Shown here one piece after another: positions 150-9,814 of a stretch of DNA of 9,814 bases (position 1 is its first letter; the number at the start of each line of letters is the position of its first letter). The position numbers and the translations under genes were made by a program. Below the pieces are notes generated by a model. The model made no database searches and was not told where the DNA came from. It worked only from the letters and a program-made list of their open reading frames with translations. The stretch is from an uncultured archaeon (GTDB lineage: Archaea; Iainarchaeota; Iainarchaeia; Iainarchaeales; 0-14-0-20-30-16): the NCBI GenBank assembly GCA_964595665.1, contig CAZQQS010000009.1:4373-14186 (forward strand), given 5' to 3'.

Positions 150-923
150 TTATCTAATATATGTTGGTTTAGCTTCATTTTCAGTTATTTTTGAGCTTTC
201 TGCAACTTGTTTTAATTCTTTAACAACTTGTTTAAAAGCTTTAGATATTTTTTCAGCTTCTTGTTCTATTTCTTTCATATCAAATTTGAATTTAAAATAT
301 TTTTGTACAAATAATAATGTTTTTTTAGCACTTTCAAAATCACCATATATTTTTGCAGACGTTTCGCTTAACAAACAAGCACTAGGTATATTTAATTGTT
401 CACACTCTATTAATATTAATCCTGCAATTCCAGAAATAGTGGTATTTTCTGAAACTACTTTAATATATTTAGTTAGTTCTGAATCCTTATAATATTTATT
501 TTTTGCAAAATGAATTTCTGGATTCTTAGTAATTCTACTATCTCCTAAATTCATGCCTGCAAAAGAATAAACTTCTTTAGCATTAATTCTTTTTAAAAAT
601 TGAGCAATTTCTTTTGCAAATATATAATGATGTGGAAAAGAATTTATAGAATCTAAATTAGGTTGGAAATCTCCACCAATAAAAATATAATCTTGAGTTT
701 TAGATTTGTATAAATGAATTTCATTTTGAGAGATTTTTGCCAAACCTTTCTTATCTATAAAAACCATTGGTGGAAAAAAATCTCCAGATATTTTTCCAAT
801 TTCTTTAGCTTTCAATTTGTTTGTTAAAGTATCTAAAACTATTTTTCCAACTAATCCCAAACCTGGTAAACCAATAAATACTATTGGGTTTTTAATATTT
901 TTAGTTTGGCAAGTTATTTCCAT
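150..923 (-). CDS. PAC2-family proteasome assembly chaperone (archaeal PbaA/PbaB-like, COG1938 type)
   Basis: 257-aa ORF. The N-terminal PIVFIGLPGLGLVGKIVLDTL matches the G-[FL]-P-G-x-G-x-V-G opening signature of PAC2 proteins. Size is typical, and there is a long charged helical C-terminal tail ending PTYIR. The ATG lies 4 nt after the aIF-2 alpha stop. Confidence 0.8.
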   Translation of the reverse strand: MEITCQTKNIKNPIVFIGLPGLGLVGKIVLDTLTNKLKAKEIGKISGDFFPPMVFIDKKGLAKISQNEIHLYKSKTQDYIFIGGDFQPNLDSINSFPHHYIFAKEIAQFLKRINAKEVYSFAGMNLGDSRITKNPEIHFAKNKYYKDSELTKYIKVVSENTTISGIAGLILIECEQLNIPSACLLSETSAKIYGDFESAKKTLLFVQKYFKFKFDMKEIEQEAEKISKAFKQVVKELKQVAESSKITENEAKPTYIR

Positions 924-927
924 ACTC

Positions 928-931
928 TCAC
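928..931 (-). promoter_or_regulatory. GTGA Shine-Dalgarno-like element containing the aIF-2 alpha TGA stop, 4 nt upstream of the PAC2 ATG
   Basis: The minus strand reads AAAAGTGAGAGTATG. GTGA is complementary to the UCAC of the archaeal 16S 3' end (AUCACCUCC). Confidence 0.5.
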
Positions 932-1689
932 TTTTCTCTTTTTATATCTATAGTTCCTAATTTAGAGAAATATTTTTGTAAATAGTCATTAATGGTTGCA
1001 AAATATTTTTCAATTGTTTTATAATCTTTAGCTTCAGTTTTAACCATATATTTACCATTACCTTGGTATTTTATTGTACTAATAACATTTTTATCTTTTG
1101 GTAAATCTTTAAATCCTTTTTTAATCAAATTTAATCCGTCTTCTTTTTGGGTTTCAATTTTAACAATTTGAATAATGCTTTTATCATTAATTGTAACATT
1201 TTTATCAATTATATCAAATAAAACTTCTCTATATTCTTTAGGAATATCTTCAAAGAAATCTTTTCCATTTCTTTTTAATTCTTGGAAACCTTCTAATACT
1301 GTATTGTATTTTGTTAAAATTGGTTCTGTAATTTTATCCCAGATTTTATCTAAATCTAAATTTAATTCTTTTGCAACTAAACTTAATAATTGTTGAACTC
1401 TTTTTGTTTGTCTCCATTCAGATAATCTTTGTTCTTCTTTAGCTTTTGGCACCATTGCAAAAGATAAGTTAACTTGGTTTTTTTCAAAATTAATATATAT
1501 TACTTTTGCAACTCTAATTTGATTATTTTTTACAAAGTTTCTAATATTTTTAACCCAACGAGCAGCAACTTGTCCCAAAGGTATAAACCCTTTTTGTCCA
1601 GGGTATTCTTCTAATTTAACTTCTACACCATAATCTAATATTTTTTCAACAGTACAAACAACAAACTCGTCTCTTTCAGGTAAATTCAT
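928..1689 (-). CDS. eif2a: Translation initiation factor aIF-2 alpha subunit
   Basis: 253-aa ORF. The N-terminal S1/OB domain (LPERDEFVVCTVEKILDYGVEVKLEEYPGQKGFIPLGQVAARWVKNIRNFVK) is near-textbook aIF-2 alpha, followed by the helical and alpha-beta C-terminal domains at the right length. Confidence 0.92.
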   Translation of the reverse strand: MNLPERDEFVVCTVEKILDYGVEVKLEEYPGQKGFIPLGQVAARWVKNIRNFVKNNQIRVAKVIYINFEKNQVNLSFAMVPKAKEEQRLSEWRQTKRVQQLLSLVAKELNLDLDKIWDKITEPILTKYNTVLEGFQELKRNGKDFFEDIPKEYREVLFDIIDKNVTINDKSIIQIVKIETQKEDGLNLIKKGFKDLPKDKNVISTIKYQGNGKYMVKTEAKDYKTIEKYFATINDYLQKYFSKLGTIDIKREK

Positions 1690-1693
1690 ATAA

Positions 1694-1697
1694 TCAC
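1694..1697 (-). promoter_or_regulatory. GTGA(T) Shine-Dalgarno-like element containing the GINS TGA stop, 4 nt upstream of the aIF-2 alpha ATG
   Basis: The minus strand reads AAAGTGATTATATG. Confidence 0.5.
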
Positions 1698-2236
1698 TTT
1701 ATTTCTTTTCCAATCTCTTTTTTAATAAATATTTTTGCTATAGACTCTATTAATTCAATTTCAGAATCTTTTTCATAAGGGCCATATTCTTTCATATCTG
1801 TTCCAATAAATTTTGGAACATCTTGTAATATCTTTAGTTTTACAACTTTTTTAGATATTTCTTCTATTTGGTCTTCAAAAGAACCTTTTACTAACATTTG
1901 ATAACTATGTAAAATATTTATTAATTTATAATAAATTTTTTGTTCTTCTAAAATCATATTTTTAATGTCATCTTCATTTGTTTTTATTTTCAATATTGCT
2001 TTATTTATAATTTTTTTCTCTCGCCAAGAAACTATATCTAATAACATATTTTTCATATTTTGTATTTTTCTAATAACTGAATCATCAAGATTTTTTTTCA
2101 TATCTTGTAATTTTGTTTTTTCTTCTTCGATAAATTCAGGAATTTCACTAAAAAAGTCATTATCGATTTTTACTAATTCTGTAGAATCTTTTTCTTGTCT
2201 ATGAATACTTCTAATAAGTTCATAAGATAATTTCAT
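1694..2236 (-). CDS. gins15: DNA replication complex GINS subunit, Gins51 (Gins15) type
   Basis: The A-domain begins YELIRSIHRQEKDSTELVKIDNDFFSEIPEFI. The C-terminal B-domain is LKILQDVPKFIGTDMKEYGPYEKDSEIELIESIAKIFIKKEIGKEI, the typical V-P-x-F-x-G-x-D-x-x-x-YGP-[FY] pattern. The gene sits beside priS, as is known for gins15. I moved the start to the internal ATG at 2236-2234 (M26 of the 205-aa track ORF), because GGGTG lies 6 nt upstream of it and the extra 25 residues lie inside priS. This gives 180 aa. Confidence 0.8.
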   Translation of the reverse strand: MKLSYELIRSIHRQEKDSTELVKIDNDFFSEIPEFIEEEKTKLQDMKKNLDDSVIRKIQNMKNMLLDIVSWREKKIINKAILKIKTNEDDIKNMILEEQKIYYKLINILHSYQMLVKGSFEDQIEEISKKVVKLKILQDVPKFIGTDMKEYGPYEKDSEIELIESIAKIFIKKEIGKEIK

Positions 2237-3449
2237 TTCCAGCACCCTTTGCAAGCAAATATAGGCCAATTTCATAAGGTAGTTCGACAATTTCATTGTC
2301 GTAAGGGCCATAATATTCCTTATTTAATAATAACTTTGGAACTTTTTTTAAATGAATCTTTATGGTTTTTTCATTTGAAGGCAATTTAGCATCCCTAAAT
2401 GGGGAGAAATCATCCAATTTATCCAAATCTATGTCTTTGGCTAATAACATTGCTCCTCCATGAATAGTATTGGGAACTCTTAAGATTTTGTAAATGTCTA
2501 TTGTTGTTTGCCTATCAATATACAATTTTTGTTTTTCTTTTATTGATTCTAAAGCAAAATACCATAAGTCTTCTGAATTGGCTTTTAATTTATAAAACTC
2601 ATTTTTGTCTAAAAGTTCTAATATAGCCAATTTATTTTTTATTAATTTATTAAATACAATTTTAGAGGTATCTTCTGGAAAATACTCTTCTAATTTTTGA
2701 ATCTCTGAATTATTAATTATTGTTTTTACCAAATTCAAATATTTTATTCCTTTACCATAGTTTAATCCTGTGTAAACTAAACTACCTTTATTATTTTCTA
2801 CAAATCCTAATTCTTTAAAATTTAATCCTGCTTCAGAAACATAATCTATTAATTCTAATCTTTCATTTTTTTTCAAGTGTTTTATTTTATTTGAAGAAAT
2901 ATAAACATGATATCCTTTATGTCCAGAGAAATTAATTTGTAATTCTTCTTCTGTAAATCCTAATTCATCTATTAATATTTTAATTAATCTTTTTGTTTGT
3001 TTTTTTGTTGCATTTAAACATTGGTCACAAACCCACTCACTTAATTTAGTTTTCATATTACATTCTGGGCATTTCATTATATGACCTTTTCCTTCCGCAC
3101 CACATTTTTCGCAATACCAAGAATCATGTATTTTCTTACAAGCTGTAGGAATATCGTCAGCATCAAATTCAAACATAAAATCGCTTTCCAACATATTTTT
3201 TGCAGTAGTTGGGGATGCATCTGGGAATTCATATTTTCCAATTGATTTTGATAAATAAAAAGGAATCTTATTTCTTAAAAAATCGTTTAAATCATAATTG
3301 TCTTTAAATTGAATATTTCGATTAGCAATTTTTTTGTTGTAAACTCCATATCCAAATTCATATTTTTCTATATCCTTAAGTTCTATAAAGGTTTTAGTAT
3401 AATAGTCCTTTATTTTAGAGGTTAAATATTCCTCTGCTTTAATAATCAT
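2220..3449 (-). CDS. priS: DNA primase small (catalytic) subunit PriS
   Basis: 409-aa ORF containing the archaeo-eukaryotic primase motifs. Motif I is FMFEFDADD (D96/D98). The Zn knuckle is CEKC...CPEC, plus CDQC (C113-C144, about 3018-3113). Motif II is FSGHKGYHVY and motif III is LRVPNTIHGG. The C-terminal domain resembles a GINS B-domain. Confidence 0.93.
   Translation of the reverse strand: MIIKAEEYLTSKIKDYYTKTFIELKDIEKYEFGYGVYNKKIANRNIQFKDNYDLNDFLRNKIPFYLSKSIGKYEFPDASPTTAKNMLESDFMFEFDADDIPTACKKIHDSWYCEKCGAEGKGHIMKCPECNMKTKLSEWVCDQCLNATKKQTKRLIKILIDELGFTEEELQINFSGHKGYHVYISSNKIKHLKKNERLELIDYVSEAGLNFKELGFVENNKGSLVYTGLNYGKGIKYLNLVKTIINNSEIQKLEEYFPEDTSKIVFNKLIKNKLAILELLDKNEFYKLKANSEDLWYFALESIKEKQKLYIDRQTTIDIYKILRVPNTIHGGAMLLAKDIDLDKLDDFSPFRDAKLPSNEKTIKIHLKKVPKLLLNKEYYGPYDNEIVELPYEIGLYLLAKGAGNEIIL
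2243..2247 (-). promoter_or_regulatory. GGGTG Shine-Dalgarno element for the GINS gene, embedded in the 3' end of priS
   Basis: The minus strand reads AAAGGGTGCTGGAAATG, with a 6-nt spacer to the ATG at 2236. Confidence 0.5.
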
Positions 3450-3464
3450 ATAGAAATAGGAAAG

Positions 3465-3479
3465 AATATATATAAATAA
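3465..3479. promoter_or_regulatory. Back-to-back TATA block shared by divergent priS and the pyruvate-kinase homologue
   Basis: AATATATATAAATAA is the only TATA-like element in the 44-bp spacer 3450-3493. The positions about 26 nt upstream of each ATG (around 3467 for the plus gene, around 3475 for the minus gene) both fall inside it. Neither ATG has an SD, which suggests leaderless mRNAs. Confidence 0.5.
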
Positions 3480-3493
3480 GTTATCAATATATC

Positions 3494-4210
3494 ATGTCAA
3501 AAACTAAAATAATTGCAACTTTGGGGCCTTCAAGTAGTTCTTTGGAAATAATTGAAAAGCTTATTAAAAATGGAGCAGATATTTTTAGAATTAATACTAA
3601 ATATGGTTCAGAAGAAGAATATTTGCAATTAATTGATAGTATTAATTTGGCAAAGAAAAAATTGAATAAAAAAACTAAAATTCTTTTTGATATTAAAAAT
3701 CAAAAATTAATTCCATTTTTGCGAGAAATAAAATTTGATTATTTGGCTGTTGCATTTGCAGAATCAAAACAACAAATTAATGCAATTAAAAAAAAGTTAA
3801 AAAATGATAAAATTAAAATTATTTCTAAGATTGAGACTAAGAAAGGTTTTAAGAATTTAAGCGAATTAATTAATTGTTCTTTTGGCATTATGGTTGCCAG
3901 AGGCGATTTAGGTAAAAATGTTCCGTTACAAAAATTGCCAATTTATCAAAAAGAAATTATTTCTATTTGCAATAAGAAAAATGTTTTTGTTATTACTGCT
4001 ACAGAAATGCTTTTGTCAATGCAATTTAATAAATTGCCTACAAAAGCAGAAGTTACAGATGTTGCAAATGCTGTTTTAGATGGTTCCAATGCAATAATGC
4101 TTTCTGAAGAAACTACTATTGGTAAATATCCTGAATTGGCAGTTAAATTTATGGATAAAATTATTTTAGAAATTGAAAAATGGAATAAAAAATTTAATTG
4201 TCTGGAATGA
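3494..4210 (+). CDS. pyk: Pyruvate kinase homologue reduced to the A-domain (beta/alpha)8 barrel; lacks the B (lid) and C (regulatory) domains
   Basis: 238 aa. SKTKIIATLGPSS, GADIFRINTKYG, ILFDIKNQ, KIISKIETKKG, GIMVARGDLG, VITATEMLLSM, PTKAEVTDVANAVLDGSNAIMLSEETTIGKYP are collinear with the PK signatures KTKIvcTiGP, mRLNFSHG, LDTKGPEIR, iISKIEn.eG, GIMVARGDLG, atQML.SM and PTRAE..DVANAvlDG.D.vMLSGEta.GkYP. The roughly 100-aa B domain between DxK and the next barrel strand is replaced by a few residues. The ORF stops just after barrel helix 8. Confidence 0.85.
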   Translation: MSKTKIIATLGPSSSSLEIIEKLIKNGADIFRINTKYGSEEEYLQLIDSINLAKKKLNKKTKILFDIKNQKLIPFLREIKFDYLAVAFAESKQQINAIKKKLKNDKIKIISKIETKKGFKNLSELINCSFGIMVARGDLGKNVPLQKLPIYQKEIISICNKKNVFVITATEMLLSMQFNKLPTKAEVTDVANAVLDGSNAIMLSEETTIGKYPELAVKFMDKIILEIEKWNKKFNCLE

Positions 4211-4874
4211 AAAACTTAATTATAAATAATGCAATTCCCACAATCAAAAATATAACTCCATAAGTTAATAATGTATTAGTAAAATTTGAAAGTATAGTAG
4301 TAATTAAAGAACCAAATTCTGGAAGTTTTTCTAAAATTAAATTATTTAAAGTATATTTTGTAACAAAAGTAAATATTATTATTGGGATTGTTGCAATTAT
4401 TAAATTTGTAGATAGCCAAGAAACTATTTCTTTTGGATTTCTTGAGAATATACTTACTATTCCGATTAAAAGGATCGCTAAGATTAATCCAAGTATTCCT
4501 ATTAATCGTCCAATACTGTAACTTGATTTTAATTTATTTAAAGTTTCGGATAAATTACTTTGAAAAGAATTTAATAATAAATTTGATTCCATGGTATTTC
4601 CAGAAACATTTATATCTAATCGTTTATCTTTTATAAAATCTATACTCTGAGAGACGTATATTTTTATGCTCAAAATAATGTCTTCTTTTACCATTGTGTT
4701 TAAGTCTATTGGAACATCTTCAAAAAGGTTTTCTGAATAATTATCTACTAATGTTTGATATGGTTCAGCAACAATTAAAGTATTATCTAAAACTAACCAA
4801 GTTAATGCTGTAGAAAATCCTACTATAAAAAAGAACCCAAATATTGCAAACAAAAACTTTTTTAAGAAATTCAT
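4194..4874 (-). CDS. Hypothetical integral membrane protein (N-terminal TM, extracytoplasmic region of about 110 aa, three C-terminal TMs)
   Basis: 226-aa ORF with clear hydrophobic segments (FLFAIFGFFFIVGFSTALTWLVL; LIGILGLILAILLIGIVSIF; LIIATIPIIIFTFV; LLTYGVIFLIVGIALFIIKFF). I recognise no family. Its 3' end overlaps the pyk homologue by 17 nt. Confidence 0.7.
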   Translation of the reverse strand: MNFLKKFLFAIFGFFFIVGFSTALTWLVLDNTLIVAEPYQTLVDNYSENLFEDVPIDLNTMVKEDIILSIKIYVSQSIDFIKDKRLDINVSGNTMESNLLLNSFQSNLSETLNKLKSSYSIGRLIGILGLILAILLIGIVSIFSRNPKEIVSWLSTNLIIATIPIIIFTFVTKYTLNNLILEKLPEFGSLITTILSNFTNTLLTYGVIFLIVGIALFIIKFFIPDN

Positions 4875-7987: not shown

Positions 7988-7993
7988 GAGGGG
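7988..7993 (+). promoter_or_regulatory. Shine-Dalgarno element GAGGGG, 5 nt upstream of ATG 7999
   Basis: The sequence is AAATGAGGGGTATTTATG. The in-frame TGA at 7987-7989 fixes 7999 as the first possible start. Confidence 0.55.
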
Positions 7994-7998
7994 TATTT

Positions 7999-8085
7999 AT
8001 GAATTATAATAATTTTTCAATTAAAGTAGTAAGTTTTTTATCAATTTTTTTATTAAGTTTTTTGTTTTTGGGTTTCGTTAATGCT
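7999..8085 (+). other. Signal peptide (29 aa), predicted cleavage after VNA
   Basis: It has a short polar n-region containing Lys, a hydrophobic core of about 17 residues, and a small-x-small (V-N-A) site followed by Glu. Confidence 0.7.
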
Positions 8086-9814
8086 GAAACTGTTAAAATA
8101 AAATATTATTCTATTGCTTCTGGTAATATTGATTCTATTTATTGTTTTGATTCTAAACCTAAATTTGATGGTCATGCATTAAGTACTCCTGATTTGGTTA
8201 GACAAACTATGCCTAGTCCATACAATAGGCAATATTGTTATTATAGACATTGGGCTAATATTGCTGTGGATTATAAATTAGAATTATTACCAAATAAAAT
8301 TTCTGAAAGTTATATTAAAGAAGGAGAAATAAAGAATCCTGGAATTAATTATTATGTTGATGAAGTATTTACTACTTTAAAATTAACTTCTGGACCTACT
8401 ACTAATTTAGGTGCATATCCTGTTAATTGGTATAAGGGGAAATATAGCACTTATGGTGTAATAAATTCAAATGGTGTTGAAAAATTAGTTTTAGATGTTA
8501 GTTTATATCCTAAATATACTACTGAGTTAGTTAGAAAAAAATCTATTTTGCCAACAGGTGCAAAATATTTTGTATATGCTCATTCTGGAAGTAGGGCGTA
8601 TAATATTTATGACTCAAAAGGTACATTTTTGGGAATTTATTCTATAGGTAATGGTGAAGGCACTGAAGACGATACTTTTAATGAAGCTTCATATTCTGTA
8701 AAAGAATTACCTTTGGTTTCAGGTCAAACTCCAGTTCAAGAGCCTGTTAAAGTTGTTGGTGCTGATACACAACAAATTGTTCCAGAAGATGAATCTGTTC
8801 AAGAAGCTGATGTTTCAGTACAACCCGCAGCTATAATGTCTGTTTCTGAAGATGGTATTACGAAAGGCGTATCTTTAGGTTTAGGGCAAACTGAATGTGA
8901 TTATGTTACAAATTTAACTAATTTTAATGTTTTAAATTATGATGTAATTTCTAAAAATGTTGGTTCTGCAGCATCAATTAATTTTCCTTTAGCTGATTCT
9001 AAAAATATTACAATAAATCTTAAAGGGGAAAAAAGTGTTTTGTTTAATGGATTATCAAAATGTTATTTAAAAGACATAGGTAAAGTTTATGTTGTTGAAG
9101 GTTATTATTTTAAATACAATACAATTGAAGAAATATTATTTTACAAATCTAAATTAGATACTACTTGTTTAGCACAAAAATTAAATTTAGTTAAAAAAGA
9201 AGAATCTAAAATTGCTTATTGTGTAAATACAACTTGTTCTATATTAAATTCTGTAAATGTTTCCAAAATAAATCAATCGGAAATTGAAGGTTTAGAAAAA
9301 TTTATGTGTTATTCTCAAGATTTAAAAGAAGCTGAGTTTATTGGAAATAGAACAATTGTTTTTTCAGAAGATGTAAAAAATTATGTTTGGGATGAAACAA
9401 AAACCAAATATGTATTTAATGCAAATTTTATTAATCAAGATGTTGTTTCAGAGGTAGATTCAGAAGAAGAGGTTATGAATTTAACTATAGCGCCAGGTCA
9501 AACTATACCCATAATTTTAAGAACTGTTGATTTTAATGTTGATTATAGTAAAGCTAAAGAATATGGTTTAATTTATCCTTTAGTTGAAGGAGCTAGTGTT
9601 TGGAGAGTTTTGTATAATGCTGATCCATCAGTTAATGCTATAGGATATTTTTGGCCAGAAAAAGAATGTGTAGAAGAAGAAGCAAATTCAATTTGGTATT
9701 CAAAAAATATTAATATGAAAAATCATTCCGAATTTGATGGTGAAAATAAAGTAGTTGGATTAGTATTTTCTGACTGTGGTCAAATAAATGGTAGATGGGC
9801 TCAAAATAGTATTT
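7999..9814 (+). CDS. Large secreted/surface protein of unknown family; 5' partial that runs off the right edge (at least 605 codons)
   Basis: This gene is not in the supplied ORF track. I translated it by hand: ATG at 7999, then 604 further sense codons with no stop up to the window end, in DNA where every other frame closes quickly. The N-terminus MNYNNFSIKVVSFLSIFLLSFLFLGFVNA/ETVKI is a classic signal peptide. The mature part has 10 Cys. A Q/E/V/P-rich linker separates two globular regions. Confidence 0.88.
   Translation, partial: MNYNNFSIKVVSFLSIFLLSFLFLGFVNAETVKIKYYSIASGNIDSIYCFDSKPKFDGHALSTPDLVRQTMPSPYNRQYCYYRHWANIAVDYKLELLPNKISESYIKEGEIKNPGINYYVDEVFTTLKLTSGPTTNLGAYPVNWYKGKYSTYGVINSNGVEKLVLDVSLYPKYTTELVRKKSILPTGAKYFVYAHSGSRAYNIYDSKGTFLGIYSIGNGEGTEDDTFNEASYSVKELPLVSGQTPVQEPVKVVGADTQQIVPEDESVQEADVSVQPAAIMSVSEDGITKGVSLGLGQTECDYVTNLTNFNVLNYDVISKNVGSAASINFPLADSKNITINLKGEKSVLFNGLSKCYLKDIGKVYVVEGYYFKYNTIEEILFYKSKLDTTCLAQKLNLVKKEESKIAYCVNTTCSILNSVNVSKINQSEIEGLEKFMCYSQDLKEAEFIGNRTIVFSEDVKNYVWDETKTKYVFNANFINQDVVSEVDSEEEVMNLTIAPGQTIPIILRTVDFNVDYSKAKEYGLIYPLVEGASVWRVLYNADPSVNAIGYFWPEKECVEEEANSIWYSKNINMKNHSEFDGENKVVGLVFSDCGQINGRWAQNSI
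8719..8832 (+). other. Low-complexity Q/E/V/P-rich interdomain linker within the secreted protein
   Basis: The translation is SGQTPVQEPVKVVGADTQQIVPEDESVQEADVSVQPAA. It has no aromatic or Cys residues, unlike the flanking regions. Confidence 0.5.

What the first reader, a model, noticed from the sequence alone, without database searches (positions are those of the whole stretch)
3494..4210. Miniature pyruvate kinase: the A-domain barrel alone, with the B (lid) and C (allosteric/tetramer) domains cleanly absent
Canonical pyruvate kinases are about 450-500 aa with A, B and C domains. This ORF is 238 aa, yet it is collinear with the whole A-domain TIM barrel.

The residues I recognise as catalytic or metal ligands are retained:
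- the R and N of (R)LN(FSHG), here FRINTKYG
- the D and K of LDTKGP, here FDIKNQ
- the K and E of SKIE
- the D of ARGDLG
- the T of ATQML, here ATEML

The roughly 100-aa B-domain insertion is replaced in frame by a few residues (about 3692-3733, DIKNQKLIPFLREIKFDYLAVAF). The EIR arginine that contacts the nucleotide is therefore gone. The ORF terminates right after barrel helix 8 and overlaps the convergent neighbour by 17 nt, so there is no room for a C domain.

This looks like a selected minimal protein rather than a truncated pseudogene. Without a lid, ADP binding and active-site closure must work differently. The protein might be a constitutive, non-allosteric PK. It might depend on a partner protein. 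Or it might have moved to another PEP/pyruvate chemistry, such as the oxaloacetate decarboxylase side activity or another activity of the PEP/pyruvate-binding barrel superfamily.
Basis: partly seen in the sequence, partly recalled or inferred. Interest (0 to 1): 0.66.

Follow-up and report, generated by a model that had tools for sequence, protein, structure and literature searches.

The report
Lid-less, barrel-only pyruvate kinase homologue
This 238-residue archaeal protein is a pyruvate kinase reduced to its catalytic barrel, with no lid and no regulatory domain; it belongs to a large, well-conserved family in ultra-small archaea and bacteria that I found no paper describing, and it raises the question of how the enzyme works without a lid thought to be needed for catalysis.

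Summary
ORF 3494..4210(+) encodes a 238-aa protein that matches the pyruvate kinase (PK) barrel in two collinear pieces. About 107 lid (B-domain) residues are replaced by 2, and there is no C domain and no room for one.

It is not a pseudogene:
- The AlphaFold model is a complete (β/α)8 barrel (pLDDT 93) that superposes on PK A domains (TM 0.90-0.92).
- dN/dS against a syntenic 90%-identical orthologue is 0.10.
- All 120 best database relatives are 222-277 aa. The named ones are mostly DPANN archaea.

Every PEP, Mg2+ and catalytic residue is invariant across 128 barrel-only members. The family has its own signature: RINTKYG (the K+-ligand Ser76 is Lys, and the adenine-pocket His77 is Tyr), ATEMLL and LSEET.

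A second, independently reduced barrel-only type in CPR bacteria is fused to phosphoglycerate mutase in at least 119 clusters. This shows that such minimal barrels work in lower glycolysis.

Most likely this is a constitutive, non-allosteric, K+-independent PK. Its activity, phosphoryl acceptor and oligomeric state are untested. I found no paper describing these proteins. They score below the curated PK thresholds, so genome surveys may miss them.

The parts
3494..4210 (+). Barrel-only pyruvate kinase homologue, 238 aa plus stop
   Evidence: ORF. PF00224 E=2e-61 with no PK_C hit. AF2 pLDDT 93.2 with 8 strands and 8 helices. Foldseek matches PK A domains at TM 0.90-0.92.
3494..3709 (+). Barrel strands beta1-beta3 (residues 1-72), collinear with PykF residues 1-72
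   Evidence: phmmer alignments; tblastn.
3587..3607 (+). RINTKYG loop. R32 corresponds to rabbit R72 and N34 to N74. K36 replaces the K+ ligand Ser76. Y37 replaces the adenine-pocket His77.
   Evidence: Among 128 barrel-only members, K36 is present in 97% and Y37 in 94%. Lid-bearing PKs have S in 80% and H in 95%. Residue roles are from PMC4374775 and PMC8835810.
3686..3697 (+). FDIK at the end of beta3. D66 corresponds to rabbit D112, a K+/phosphate-site ligand.
   Evidence: Alignment. D66 is invariant in alignment A1.
3710..3715 (+). Lid excision point. Residues I73-P74 stand where about 107 residues of B domain sit in PykF (73-179). The lid residues R119, K206 and D177 (rabbit numbering) are absent.
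   Evidence: The junction length is uniform: 15 residues between D66 and D82 in 123 of 128 members.
3824..3838 (+). SKIET. K112 corresponds to the catalytic K269 and E114 to the Mg2+ ligand E271.
   Evidence: Both are 100% conserved in 128 members.
3896..3913 (+). ARGDLG. D138 corresponds to the Mg2+ ligand D295.
   Evidence: Invariant.
3998..4021 (+). ATEMLLSM. T170 corresponds to T327. The family-specific E171 stands for Q328 and L174 for E331.
   Evidence: E171 is present in 99% and L174 in 91% of barrel-only members. Lid-bearing PKs have Q in 80% and E in 59%.
4100..4114 (+). LSEET. S204 corresponds to S361 and E206 to E363. The family-specific E205 stands for G362.
   Evidence: E205 is present in 128 of 128 barrel-only members. 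Canonical PKs have G, A or E.
3450..3493 (.). 44-bp AT-rich intergenic region shared with the divergent PriS gene. It contains TATATAAATA about 20 nt upstream of the ATG.
   Evidence: Sequence. A promoter function is inferred only; in a 24% GC genome such strings are common.
4194..4874 (-). Convergent 226-aa membrane-like protein with no Pfam hit. Its 3' end overlaps the PK gene by 17 nt, which leaves no room for a C domain.
   Evidence: The same convergent neighbour is present in L001-L003.
2220..3449 (-). Divergent neighbour: DNA primase small subunit (PriS), heading a PriS-GINS-aIF2alpha-PAC2 block.
   Evidence: Pfam. The synteny is conserved in L001-L003 (90% identity) and L087 (60% identity).

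Best explanation
The gene encodes a genuine, selected, single-domain descendant of pyruvate kinase. It keeps the complete A-domain (β/α)8 barrel with the full PEP/Mg2+/phosphoryl-transfer site. The lid (B domain) has been excised to a 2-residue linker, and the allosteric/tetramerisation C domain is absent.

It most likely still transfers the phosphoryl group of PEP to a nucleoside diphosphate, giving pyruvate + NTP. It would do so as an unregulated enzyme at the end of a short lower-glycolysis or nucleoside-salvage route in a DPANN archaeon.

Inferred mechanism (not shown):
- Lys36 sits where the K+-ligand Ser76 normally is. It supplies a built-in positive charge at the K+/phosphate site, which would make the enzyme K+-independent and partly replace the lost lid cations R119 and K206.
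- Tyr37 replaces His77 as the wall of the base pocket.
- The family-specific acids E171 and E205 on the barrel rim may take over the role of lid residue D177 towards the nucleotide-bound Mg2+.
- The active site would be either permanently open or capped by a neighbouring subunit.
For: Shown:
- Two-piece collinear PK match with the lid skipped and no C domain.
- A confident, complete barrel model that superposes on PK A domains at rmsd 1.3-1.6 A.
- Purifying selection: dN/dS 0.10 against an orthologue in the same gene order in three assemblies.
- 128 barrel-only relatives of 221-277 aa. R32, N34, K112, E114, R136, D138, T170, S204 and E206 are 99-100% conserved in the 128, and D66 is invariant in alignment A1. 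Invariance of the phosphate-binding R32 and K112 argues that PEP is still the substrate.
- The nucleotide/K+ loop is not drifting. It is fixed as T-K-Y (87%, 97%, 94%).
- The clade has 87/100 bootstrap support.
- An independent barrel-only lineage in CPR bacteria is fused to dPGM-type phosphoglycerate mutase in at least 119 clusters, with no room for a lid or C domain. This ties minimal PK barrels to lower glycolysis.

Literature:
- Woesearchaeales almost always carry enolase and PGK (preprint 10.64898/2026.05.13.725050).
- A Pacearchaeota 'pyruvate kinase' was detected by metaproteomics (PMC11537232).
- Residue roles come from PMC4374775 and PMC8835810.
Against: - No activity data exist for any member.
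- In rabbit PK the lid residues R119, K206 and D177 contact the nucleotide, and a mutant whose lid cannot close (T120L) is nearly inactive (PMC8835810). A lid-less PK is therefore expected to be a poor kinase unless something compensates.
- The PGM-fusion evidence concerns the CPR 'stub' type. That type keeps a GPR arginine and Ser76, unlike the window's type.
- Lys at the Ser76 position also occurs in 9 lid-bearing PKs. It is a lineage trait, not proven compensation for lid loss.
- I could not inspect model coordinates, so the positions of K36, Y37, E171 and E205 relative to the substrates are inferred from alignment only.
- No glycolytic gene lies near the gene in nine different contexts.
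- I could not test whether the same genomes also carry a full-length PK. At least one Nanoarchaeia MAG has one (L024).
- PEP synthase is common in these lineages and could already serve the PEP/pyruvate step.
Confidence: 0.55

Rival explanations
1. The barrel still binds PEP or pyruvate, but the reaction has changed. With no lid to bind the nucleotide and exclude water, it may act as a PEP phosphatase, as an oxaloacetate decarboxylase or enolpyruvate-handling enzyme, or it may phosphorylate a non-nucleotide acceptor.
For: - All three lid residues that contact the nucleotide are gone.
- Three of the four residues of the NFSH nucleotide/K+ loop are changed.
- Family-specific changes sit next to the catalytic Thr and Ser (E171, L174, E205).
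- PEP synthase could cover the PEP/pyruvate step.
- A sub-branch is fused to a LOG/SLOG nucleotide-binding domain rather than to a glycolytic enzyme.
Against: - The phosphate-binding R32 and K112 and both Mg2+ ligands are invariant. A pure decarboxylase would not need them.
- The changed loop is strictly conserved as T-K-Y, with an aromatic residue and a cation. That is what a rebuilt nucleotide site would look like.
- The independent barrel-only lineage is fused to a glycolytic enzyme.
- A futile PEP phosphatase is hard to reconcile with strong conservation in energy-limited cells.
Confidence: 0.2
2. It is a PK core whose lid function is supplied in trans, either by a neighbouring subunit of a homo-oligomer or by a separate partner protein. 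The partner could itself be the phosphoryl acceptor, as in the lid-less PEP-binding barrels of enzyme I and PPDK, which phosphorylate a His domain.
For: - The active site is predicted to be uncovered in the monomer, with only a 2-residue linker where the lid was.
- The family is unusually well conserved (50-65% identity across DPANN phyla), which is compatible with constrained interfaces.
Against: - No conserved neighbouring gene appears in nine distinct contexts.
- There is no lid-like ORF in the window.
- Oligomer modelling could not be run.
Confidence: 0.15
3. It is a non-catalytic or moonlighting remnant, for example a metabolite sensor linked to DNA replication, given its conserved divergent pairing with PriS-GINS.
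For: PriS-GINS-aIF2alpha-PAC2 | PK synteny is kept down to 60% protein identity.
Against: - The pairing is absent from most family members.
- Invariance of every catalytic and metal residue argues for catalysis.
Confidence: 0.05
4. It is a truncated pseudogene, an assembly artefact or a frameshift product.
For: None found.
Against: - The same intact gene occurs in three independent assemblies.
- dN/dS is 0.10.
- There are 128 relatives of the same size with a uniform junction.
- The barrel model is complete.
- No B or C coding exists in any frame.
Confidence: 0.01

Closest known systems
Canonical pyruvate kinase (e.g. E. coli PykF, S. aureus PK 3T05, rabbit/human PKM), EC 2.7.1.40
   Same: It has the same A-domain barrel (36-40% identity, rmsd 1.3-1.6 A) and the same PEP, Mg2+ and catalytic residues: R72, N74, D112, K269, E271, D295, T327, S361, E363.
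   Different: - There is no B (lid) domain, so R119, K206 and D177 are absent.
- There is no C domain, so no allosteric site and no C-C tetramer interface.
- Ser76 is Lys, His77 is Tyr, Q328 is Glu and G362 is Glu.
- The length is 238 aa against about 470-530 aa.
C-domain-less pyruvate kinases (NCBIfam PRK06739 model, 352 positions; A+B proteins of 323-375 aa seen here)
   Same: These are natural PKs that have shed the regulatory C domain.
   Different: They keep the lid. The window protein scores 161 bits against that model's cut-off of 564.
CPR/Patescibacteria 'stub' barrel-only PKs and their phosphoglycerate-mutase fusions (L009-L011, L018; P0156, P0425-P0543)
   Same: They have a barrel with no C domain and no functional-size lid, occur in ultra-small organisms, and are of similar size (264-269 aa).
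   Different: They form a separate clade (93/100 bootstrap). They keep Ser76 and a DLPGPR arginine (the R119 equivalent), with a stub of about 35 residues in place of the lid. They are commonly fused to PGM. The window's type has none of these features.
K+-independent pyruvate kinases (Lys117 type, e.g. M. tuberculosis PK; PMC8835810)
   Same: An internal Lys is proposed to take the place of the K+ charge at the active site.
   Different: In those enzymes the Lys is at position 117, in the A-B hinge. That hinge is deleted here. The candidate Lys is at position 76, which is itself a K+ ligand position. This is untested.
PEP-binding barrels of enzyme I / PPDK / PEP synthase (PEP-utilising enzymes)
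   Same: They are a lid-less PEP/pyruvate-binding (β/α)8 barrel that carries out phosphoryl transfer from PEP.
   Different: They belong to a different family with a different acceptor (a His on a swivelling domain). No sequence-level membership was found; the only significant Pfam hit is PK. The analogy is from general knowledge.

Membership tests
Pyruvate kinase (PF00224 barrel; EC 2.7.1.40) | A-domain (β/α)8 barrel matching the PK barrel profile | tested here: met
   PF00224 E=2e-61, 208 bits against a cut-off of 30. The AF2 model has 8 strands and 8 helices. Foldseek TM 0.90-0.92 to PK A domains.
Pyruvate kinase (PF00224 barrel; EC 2.7.1.40) | PEP/Mg2+/catalytic residues R72, N74, D112, K269, E271, D295, T327, S361, E363 (rabbit numbering) | tested here: met
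   The corresponding residues R32, N34, D66, K112, E114, D138, T170, S204 and E206 are present. All but D66 are 99-100% conserved in 128 relatives; D66 is invariant in alignment A1.
Pyruvate kinase (PF00224 barrel; EC 2.7.1.40) | B (lid) domain inserted between beta3 and alpha3, carrying the nucleotide contacts R119, K206 and D177 | tested here: not met
   PykF residues 73-179 have no counterpart, only a 2-residue linker. There is no lid coding in any frame of the window.
Pyruvate kinase (PF00224 barrel; EC 2.7.1.40) | C-terminal alpha/beta domain (PF02887) with the allosteric site and tetramer interface | tested here: not met
   No PF02887 hit. The ORF ends about 10 residues after the barrel and overlaps the convergent gene.
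Pyruvate kinase (PF00224 barrel; EC 2.7.1.40) | Monovalent-cation site formed by N74, S76, D112 and the T113 carbonyl | tested here: not met
   Ser76 is replaced by Lys36, in 97% of the family. N34 and D66 are kept.
Pyruvate kinase (PF00224 barrel; EC 2.7.1.40) | Score above the curated equivalog cut-off (TIGR01064) | tested here: not met
   256.5 bits against a cut-off of 306.4. All other NCBIfam PK models are also below their cut-offs.
Pyruvate kinase (PF00224 barrel; EC 2.7.1.40) | Catalysis of PEP + ADP -> pyruvate + ATP | not testable with these tools
   This needs an enzyme assay.
DPANN-type barrel-only PK clade (defined here) | Length 221-277 aa, lid fully excised (15 residues between D66 and D82), RxNTKY[GA], ATEMLL, LSEET | tested here: met
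   The window protein has all of these features. The clade has 87/100 bootstrap support.
CPR 'stub' barrel-only PK / PGM-PK fusion | DLPGPR arginine, RLNF[SF]W, a lid stub of about 35 residues, often a His_Phos_1 fusion | tested here: not met
   The window has FDIKNQ and RINTKYG, no stub and no fusion. It falls in a separate clade.
HpcH/HpaI aldolase (PF03328), another barrel of the PEP/pyruvate superfamily | Profile match above the gathering score | tested here: not met
   No PF03328 hit for the window protein at E<=0.01. Some relatives have only weak secondary hits.

The most novel reading that the evidence does not exclude
The lid-less barrel is not a self-sufficient ADP kinase. It is a PEP-dependent phosphotransferase whose 'lid' or acceptor comes in trans, from a neighbouring subunit, a partner protein or a non-nucleotide substrate. 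In that case DPANN and CPR cells would use a new PEP-driven phosphoryl-transfer reaction built on the PK active site.
Probability: 0.15. Interest if true: 0.85.

Novelty: new variant of a known kind. Interest (0 to 1): 0.6.

Why it matters
- Enzymology. Lid closure, which brings R119, K206 and D177 onto the nucleotide, is regarded as integral to PK catalysis. A 230-residue, lid-less, C-less PK that is strongly conserved across DPANN archaea would define the minimal catalytic unit of a textbook enzyme. Two independent reductions (DPANN type and CPR stub type) show how the lost contacts might be rebuilt on the barrel rim.
- Genome interpretation. These proteins score below the curated PK thresholds. 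Surveys report PK as 'patchy' in CPR and DPANN (PMC7304191; preprint 10.64898/2026.05.13.725050). Unrecognised barrel-only and PGM-fused forms may change conclusions about whether these organisms can make ATP by substrate-level phosphorylation.
- Engineering. A small, unregulated PK would be a useful ATP-regeneration module.

Tried and rejected
- Hidden B or C domain, or a frameshift: rejected by six-frame tblastn with full-length PKs, the convergent overlapping neighbour and intact syntenic orthologues.
- A separately encoded lid or partner next to the gene: nine distinct neighbourhoods share no gene. The PriS-GINS-aIF2alpha-PAC2 pairing is lineage-specific synteny.
- Stepwise loss (B first, then C) via the lid-less barrel+C proteins: the NJ topology suggested it, but bootstrap support is 7/100 or less, so I do not claim it.
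- Ser76-to-Lys as a strict correlate of lid loss: rejected. Nine lid-bearing PKs (RxNxKHN + DLQGPEIR) also have it.
- Literature: six full-text searches found no description of natural lid-less or barrel-only PKs or of PGM-PK fusions. This covers the held library only.
- Taxonomic names for the closest relatives: not available. The 'Gracilibacteria' label of P0100 could not be confirmed or refuted from its contig.
- tRNA and Rfam scans of the window: nothing found.

Full report
**Observation**

The window is about 24% GC and archaeal in gene content: PriS, GINS51, aIF2alpha, PAC2, thymidylate kinase, YbjQ and a Na+/H+ exchanger. ORF 3494..4210(+) encodes 238 aa. Pfam gives the PK barrel (PF00224) at E=2e-61 in two stretches and no PK_C. 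Against solved structures, residues 1-72 align without gaps to E. coli PykF 1-72, and residues 75-224 align to PykF 180-332. The lid (B domain, about 107 residues) is therefore replaced by two residues, and the protein ends just after barrel helix 8.

Six-frame tblastn with four full-length PKs finds only these two pieces in the window. Nothing corresponds to lid or C-domain residues. The 3' end overlaps a convergent membrane-protein gene by 17 nt. One refinement: most of its 'replacement segment' is the ordinary helix alpha3, and the linker itself is only 2-3 residues.

**Is it real and selected?**

- An AlphaFold2 model built on 43 family members is confident (pLDDT 93.2, pTM 0.90). It has eight strands and eight helices, which is a complete barrel.
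- Foldseek places it on PK A domains with query-normalised TM 0.90-0.92 and rmsd 1.3-1.6 A.
- A 90%-identical orthologue lies in the same gene order in three independent assemblies. Nei-Gojobori dN/dS between the two genes is 0.10, with dS 0.64.
- The 120 best hits among 5.8 billion proteins are all 222-277 aa and 51-100% identical. Those that carry a name are Woese-, Pace-, Micr- and Nanoarchaeota or Diapherotrites, with two bacterial or ambiguous labels.

The pseudogene and artefact readings are excluded.

**Anatomy of the family**

I fetched 263 sequences and sorted them by domain layout:

| Layout | Number | Length |
|---|---|---|
| Barrel-only | 128 | 221-277 aa |
| A+B+C | 102 | 435-589 aa |
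| A+B (no C) | 21 | 323-375 aa |
| Lid-less with a C-terminal extension: 9 with a C domain, plus the LOG fusion P0126 | 10 | 349-448 aa |
| Short lid stub, no C domain | 2 | 268 and 483 aa |

In the barrel-only class, R32, N34, K112, E114, R136, G137, D138, T170, S204 and E206 are 99-100% conserved, and D66 is invariant in alignment A1. These correspond to rabbit R72, N74, D112, K269, E271, R293, G294, D295, T327, S361 and E363. The junction has a uniform length.

Family-specific conserved residues are:
- T35, K36 and Y37, where canonical PKs have F, S and H;
- E171 and L174, for Q328 and E331;
- E205, for G362, present in 128 of 128;
- E90 and Q94, at the beta4 rim.

According to the literature, Ser76 is one of the four K+ ligands (PMC4374775). 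His77 bounds the adenine pocket. The lid residues R119, K206 and D177 move 7-10 A to contact the nucleotide, and a mutant whose lid cannot close is almost inactive (PMC8835810).

**Relatives and independent reductions**

An NJ tree on barrel columns with 100 bootstraps supports two groups:
- a DPANN-type barrel-only clade (87/100), which also contains bacterial CPR members (L008, and P0126 and its relatives, whose contigs carry bacterial genes);
- a separate CPR 'stub' clade (93/100).

The stub type (L009-L011, L018; 264-269 aa) keeps Ser76 and a DLPGPR arginine, and has about 35 residues where the lid was. It is fused to a dPGM-type histidine phosphatase in 119 of the 120 best clusters found with P0156. 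These clusters go down to 51% identity and come from Paceibacterota, Nomurabacteria, Parcubacteria and Minisyncoccia. Motif spacing shows no full lid and no C domain in 105 and about 107 of those 119, respectively.

A fusion of phosphoglycerate mutase with a minimal PK barrel is strong evidence that such barrels act in lower glycolysis. A small branch of the DPANN-type clade is instead fused at its C terminus to a LOG/SLOG domain. This occurs in five clusters, one of them named Parcubacteria.

The relationship between the lid-less barrel+C proteins and the barrel-only clade is unsupported. Lys at the Ser76 position also occurs in nine lid-bearing PKs.

**Context**

The divergent PriS-GINS-aIF2alpha-PAC2 block is kept with the PK gene down to 60% identity (L087). 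Six other family members have unrelated neighbours. No glycolytic gene and no candidate lid gene recurs.

**Most likely function**

Every residue that binds PEP's phosphate and carboxylate, both Mg2+ ligands and the proton-relay residues are invariant. The rebuilt nucleotide loop is itself strictly conserved. I therefore think the protein most likely remains a PEP:NDP phosphotransferase, that is, a constitutive and non-allosteric PK (confidence about 0.55).

I infer, but have not shown, the following:
- Lys36 provides the charge normally given by K+, and in part by R119 and K206.
- Tyr37 replaces His77.
- E171 or E205 substitutes for D177.

Rivals are a changed acceptor or chemistry (about 0.2), a lid supplied in trans by oligomerisation or a partner (about 0.15, not mutually exclusive with the main reading), a moonlighting role (about 0.05) and a pseudogene (about 0.01).

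**Comparison with what is known, and novelty**

It works like a PK and derives from one. It fails several defining features of the family as curated: lid, C domain, the K+-site Ser and the equivalog score (256.5 against 306.4 bits). Sources label the sequences 'pyruvate kinase' or 'hypothetical protein'.

Six literature searches found no description of lid-less or barrel-only PKs or of the PGM-PK fusion. Genome surveys count PK by HMM thresholds and report it as patchy. It was found in about one third of CPR genomes (PMC7304191), and in 39 of 123 Woesearchaeales and 9 of 54 Pacearchaeales (preprint). The passages I read in these papers say nothing about domain architecture. One metaproteome lists a Pacearchaeota 'pyruvate kinase' among the few detected proteins (PMC11537232).

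I rate it a new variant of a known kind, with interest 0.6.

**Limits**

- There is no biochemical evidence.
- No oligomer modelling was possible.
- There is no whole-genome co-occurrence test.
- The fusion evidence comes from the sister type, not from the window's own type.

Noticed in passing
L009:9995-10798, L010:9995-10795, L011:9794-10603, L018:9995-10789; proteins P0156, P0425-P0543: There is a second, independently reduced barrel-only PK type in Patescibacteria/CPR. It keeps DLPGPR and RLNFSW and has a lid stub of about 35 residues. It is fused to a dPGM-type phosphoglycerate mutase in at least 119 clusters at 90% identity. A minority have the reverse domain order. I found no paper describing this fusion.
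   Followed up: partly
P0126, P0306-P0309; L091:8001-9368: A fully lid-excised barrel-only PK is fused at its C terminus to a LOG/SLOG domain (PF03641/PF18306), on bacterial (Parcubacteria-like) contigs. The nucleotide-binding LOG domain sits exactly where the allosteric C domain would be. It may be an analogous regulatory replacement or a link to nucleotide salvage. When the two halves are unfused, LOG is not adjacent to the PK gene (L092, L093).
   Followed up: partly
P0131, P0141, P0144, P0172, P0201, P0202, P0225, P0244, P0266: These are lid-less PKs that retain the C domain (349-388 aa; PF00224 + PF02887). One is named Parcubacteria. Most also carry Lys at the Ser76 position. Their relationship to the barrel-only clade is unresolved (bootstrap 7/100 or less).
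   Followed up: partly
P0136, P0157, P0187, P0227, P0231, P0232, P0234, P0248, P0251: These are lid-bearing PKs with Lys at the K+-ligand Ser76 position (RxNxKHN). Six of them also show DLQGPE[IL]R, that is L113/Q114, the pair typical of K+-independent PKs, but with Glu117 retained. This may be an undescribed route to K+ independence.
   Followed up: no
window 150-3449 (-) with 3494-4210 (+); L001, L087, L089: The PK gene is divergently paired with a PriS-GINS51-aIF2alpha-PAC2 block. The pairing is conserved down to 60% protein identity (L087). In L089 the PK gene is followed directly by PAC2. Other family members lack the pairing, so it is probably inherited synteny rather than functional coupling.
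   Followed up: partly
window 3494-4210: The protein scores below every curated NCBIfam PK cut-off (TIGR01064: 256.5 against 306.4 bits). Relatives are named either 'pyruvate kinase' or 'hypothetical protein'. Threshold-based metabolic surveys of DPANN and CPR may under-count this enzyme.
   Followed up: partly
window 7990-9814 (+): A long open frame of at least 608 codons, with a signal-peptide-like N-terminus, runs off the window end. In the otherwise syntenic L001 this position holds a 140-aa ORF and a class II aminoacyl-tRNA synthetase on the other strand, so synteny breaks here. No domain search was run.
   Followed up: no
window 4194-4874 (-): A 226-aa multi-pass membrane-like protein with no Pfam hit is conserved as the convergent, 3'-overlapping neighbour of the PK gene in L001-L003.
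   Followed up: no
L094 (P0100, GCA_028704165.1): A K36-type barrel-only PK lies on a contig that its source labels Gracilibacteria. The neighbouring genes (UvrB, AlaRS, a FolC-like ligase, VTC, CotH) do not settle whether the contig is archaeal or bacterial. It may be inter-domain transfer or mis-binning.
   Followed up: partly
L024:7778-9118: A Nanoarchaeia MAG encodes a canonical 446-aa PK with lid and C domain. Full-length and barrel-only forms therefore both exist within DPANN. Whether they ever co-occur in one genome is unknown.
   Followed up: no
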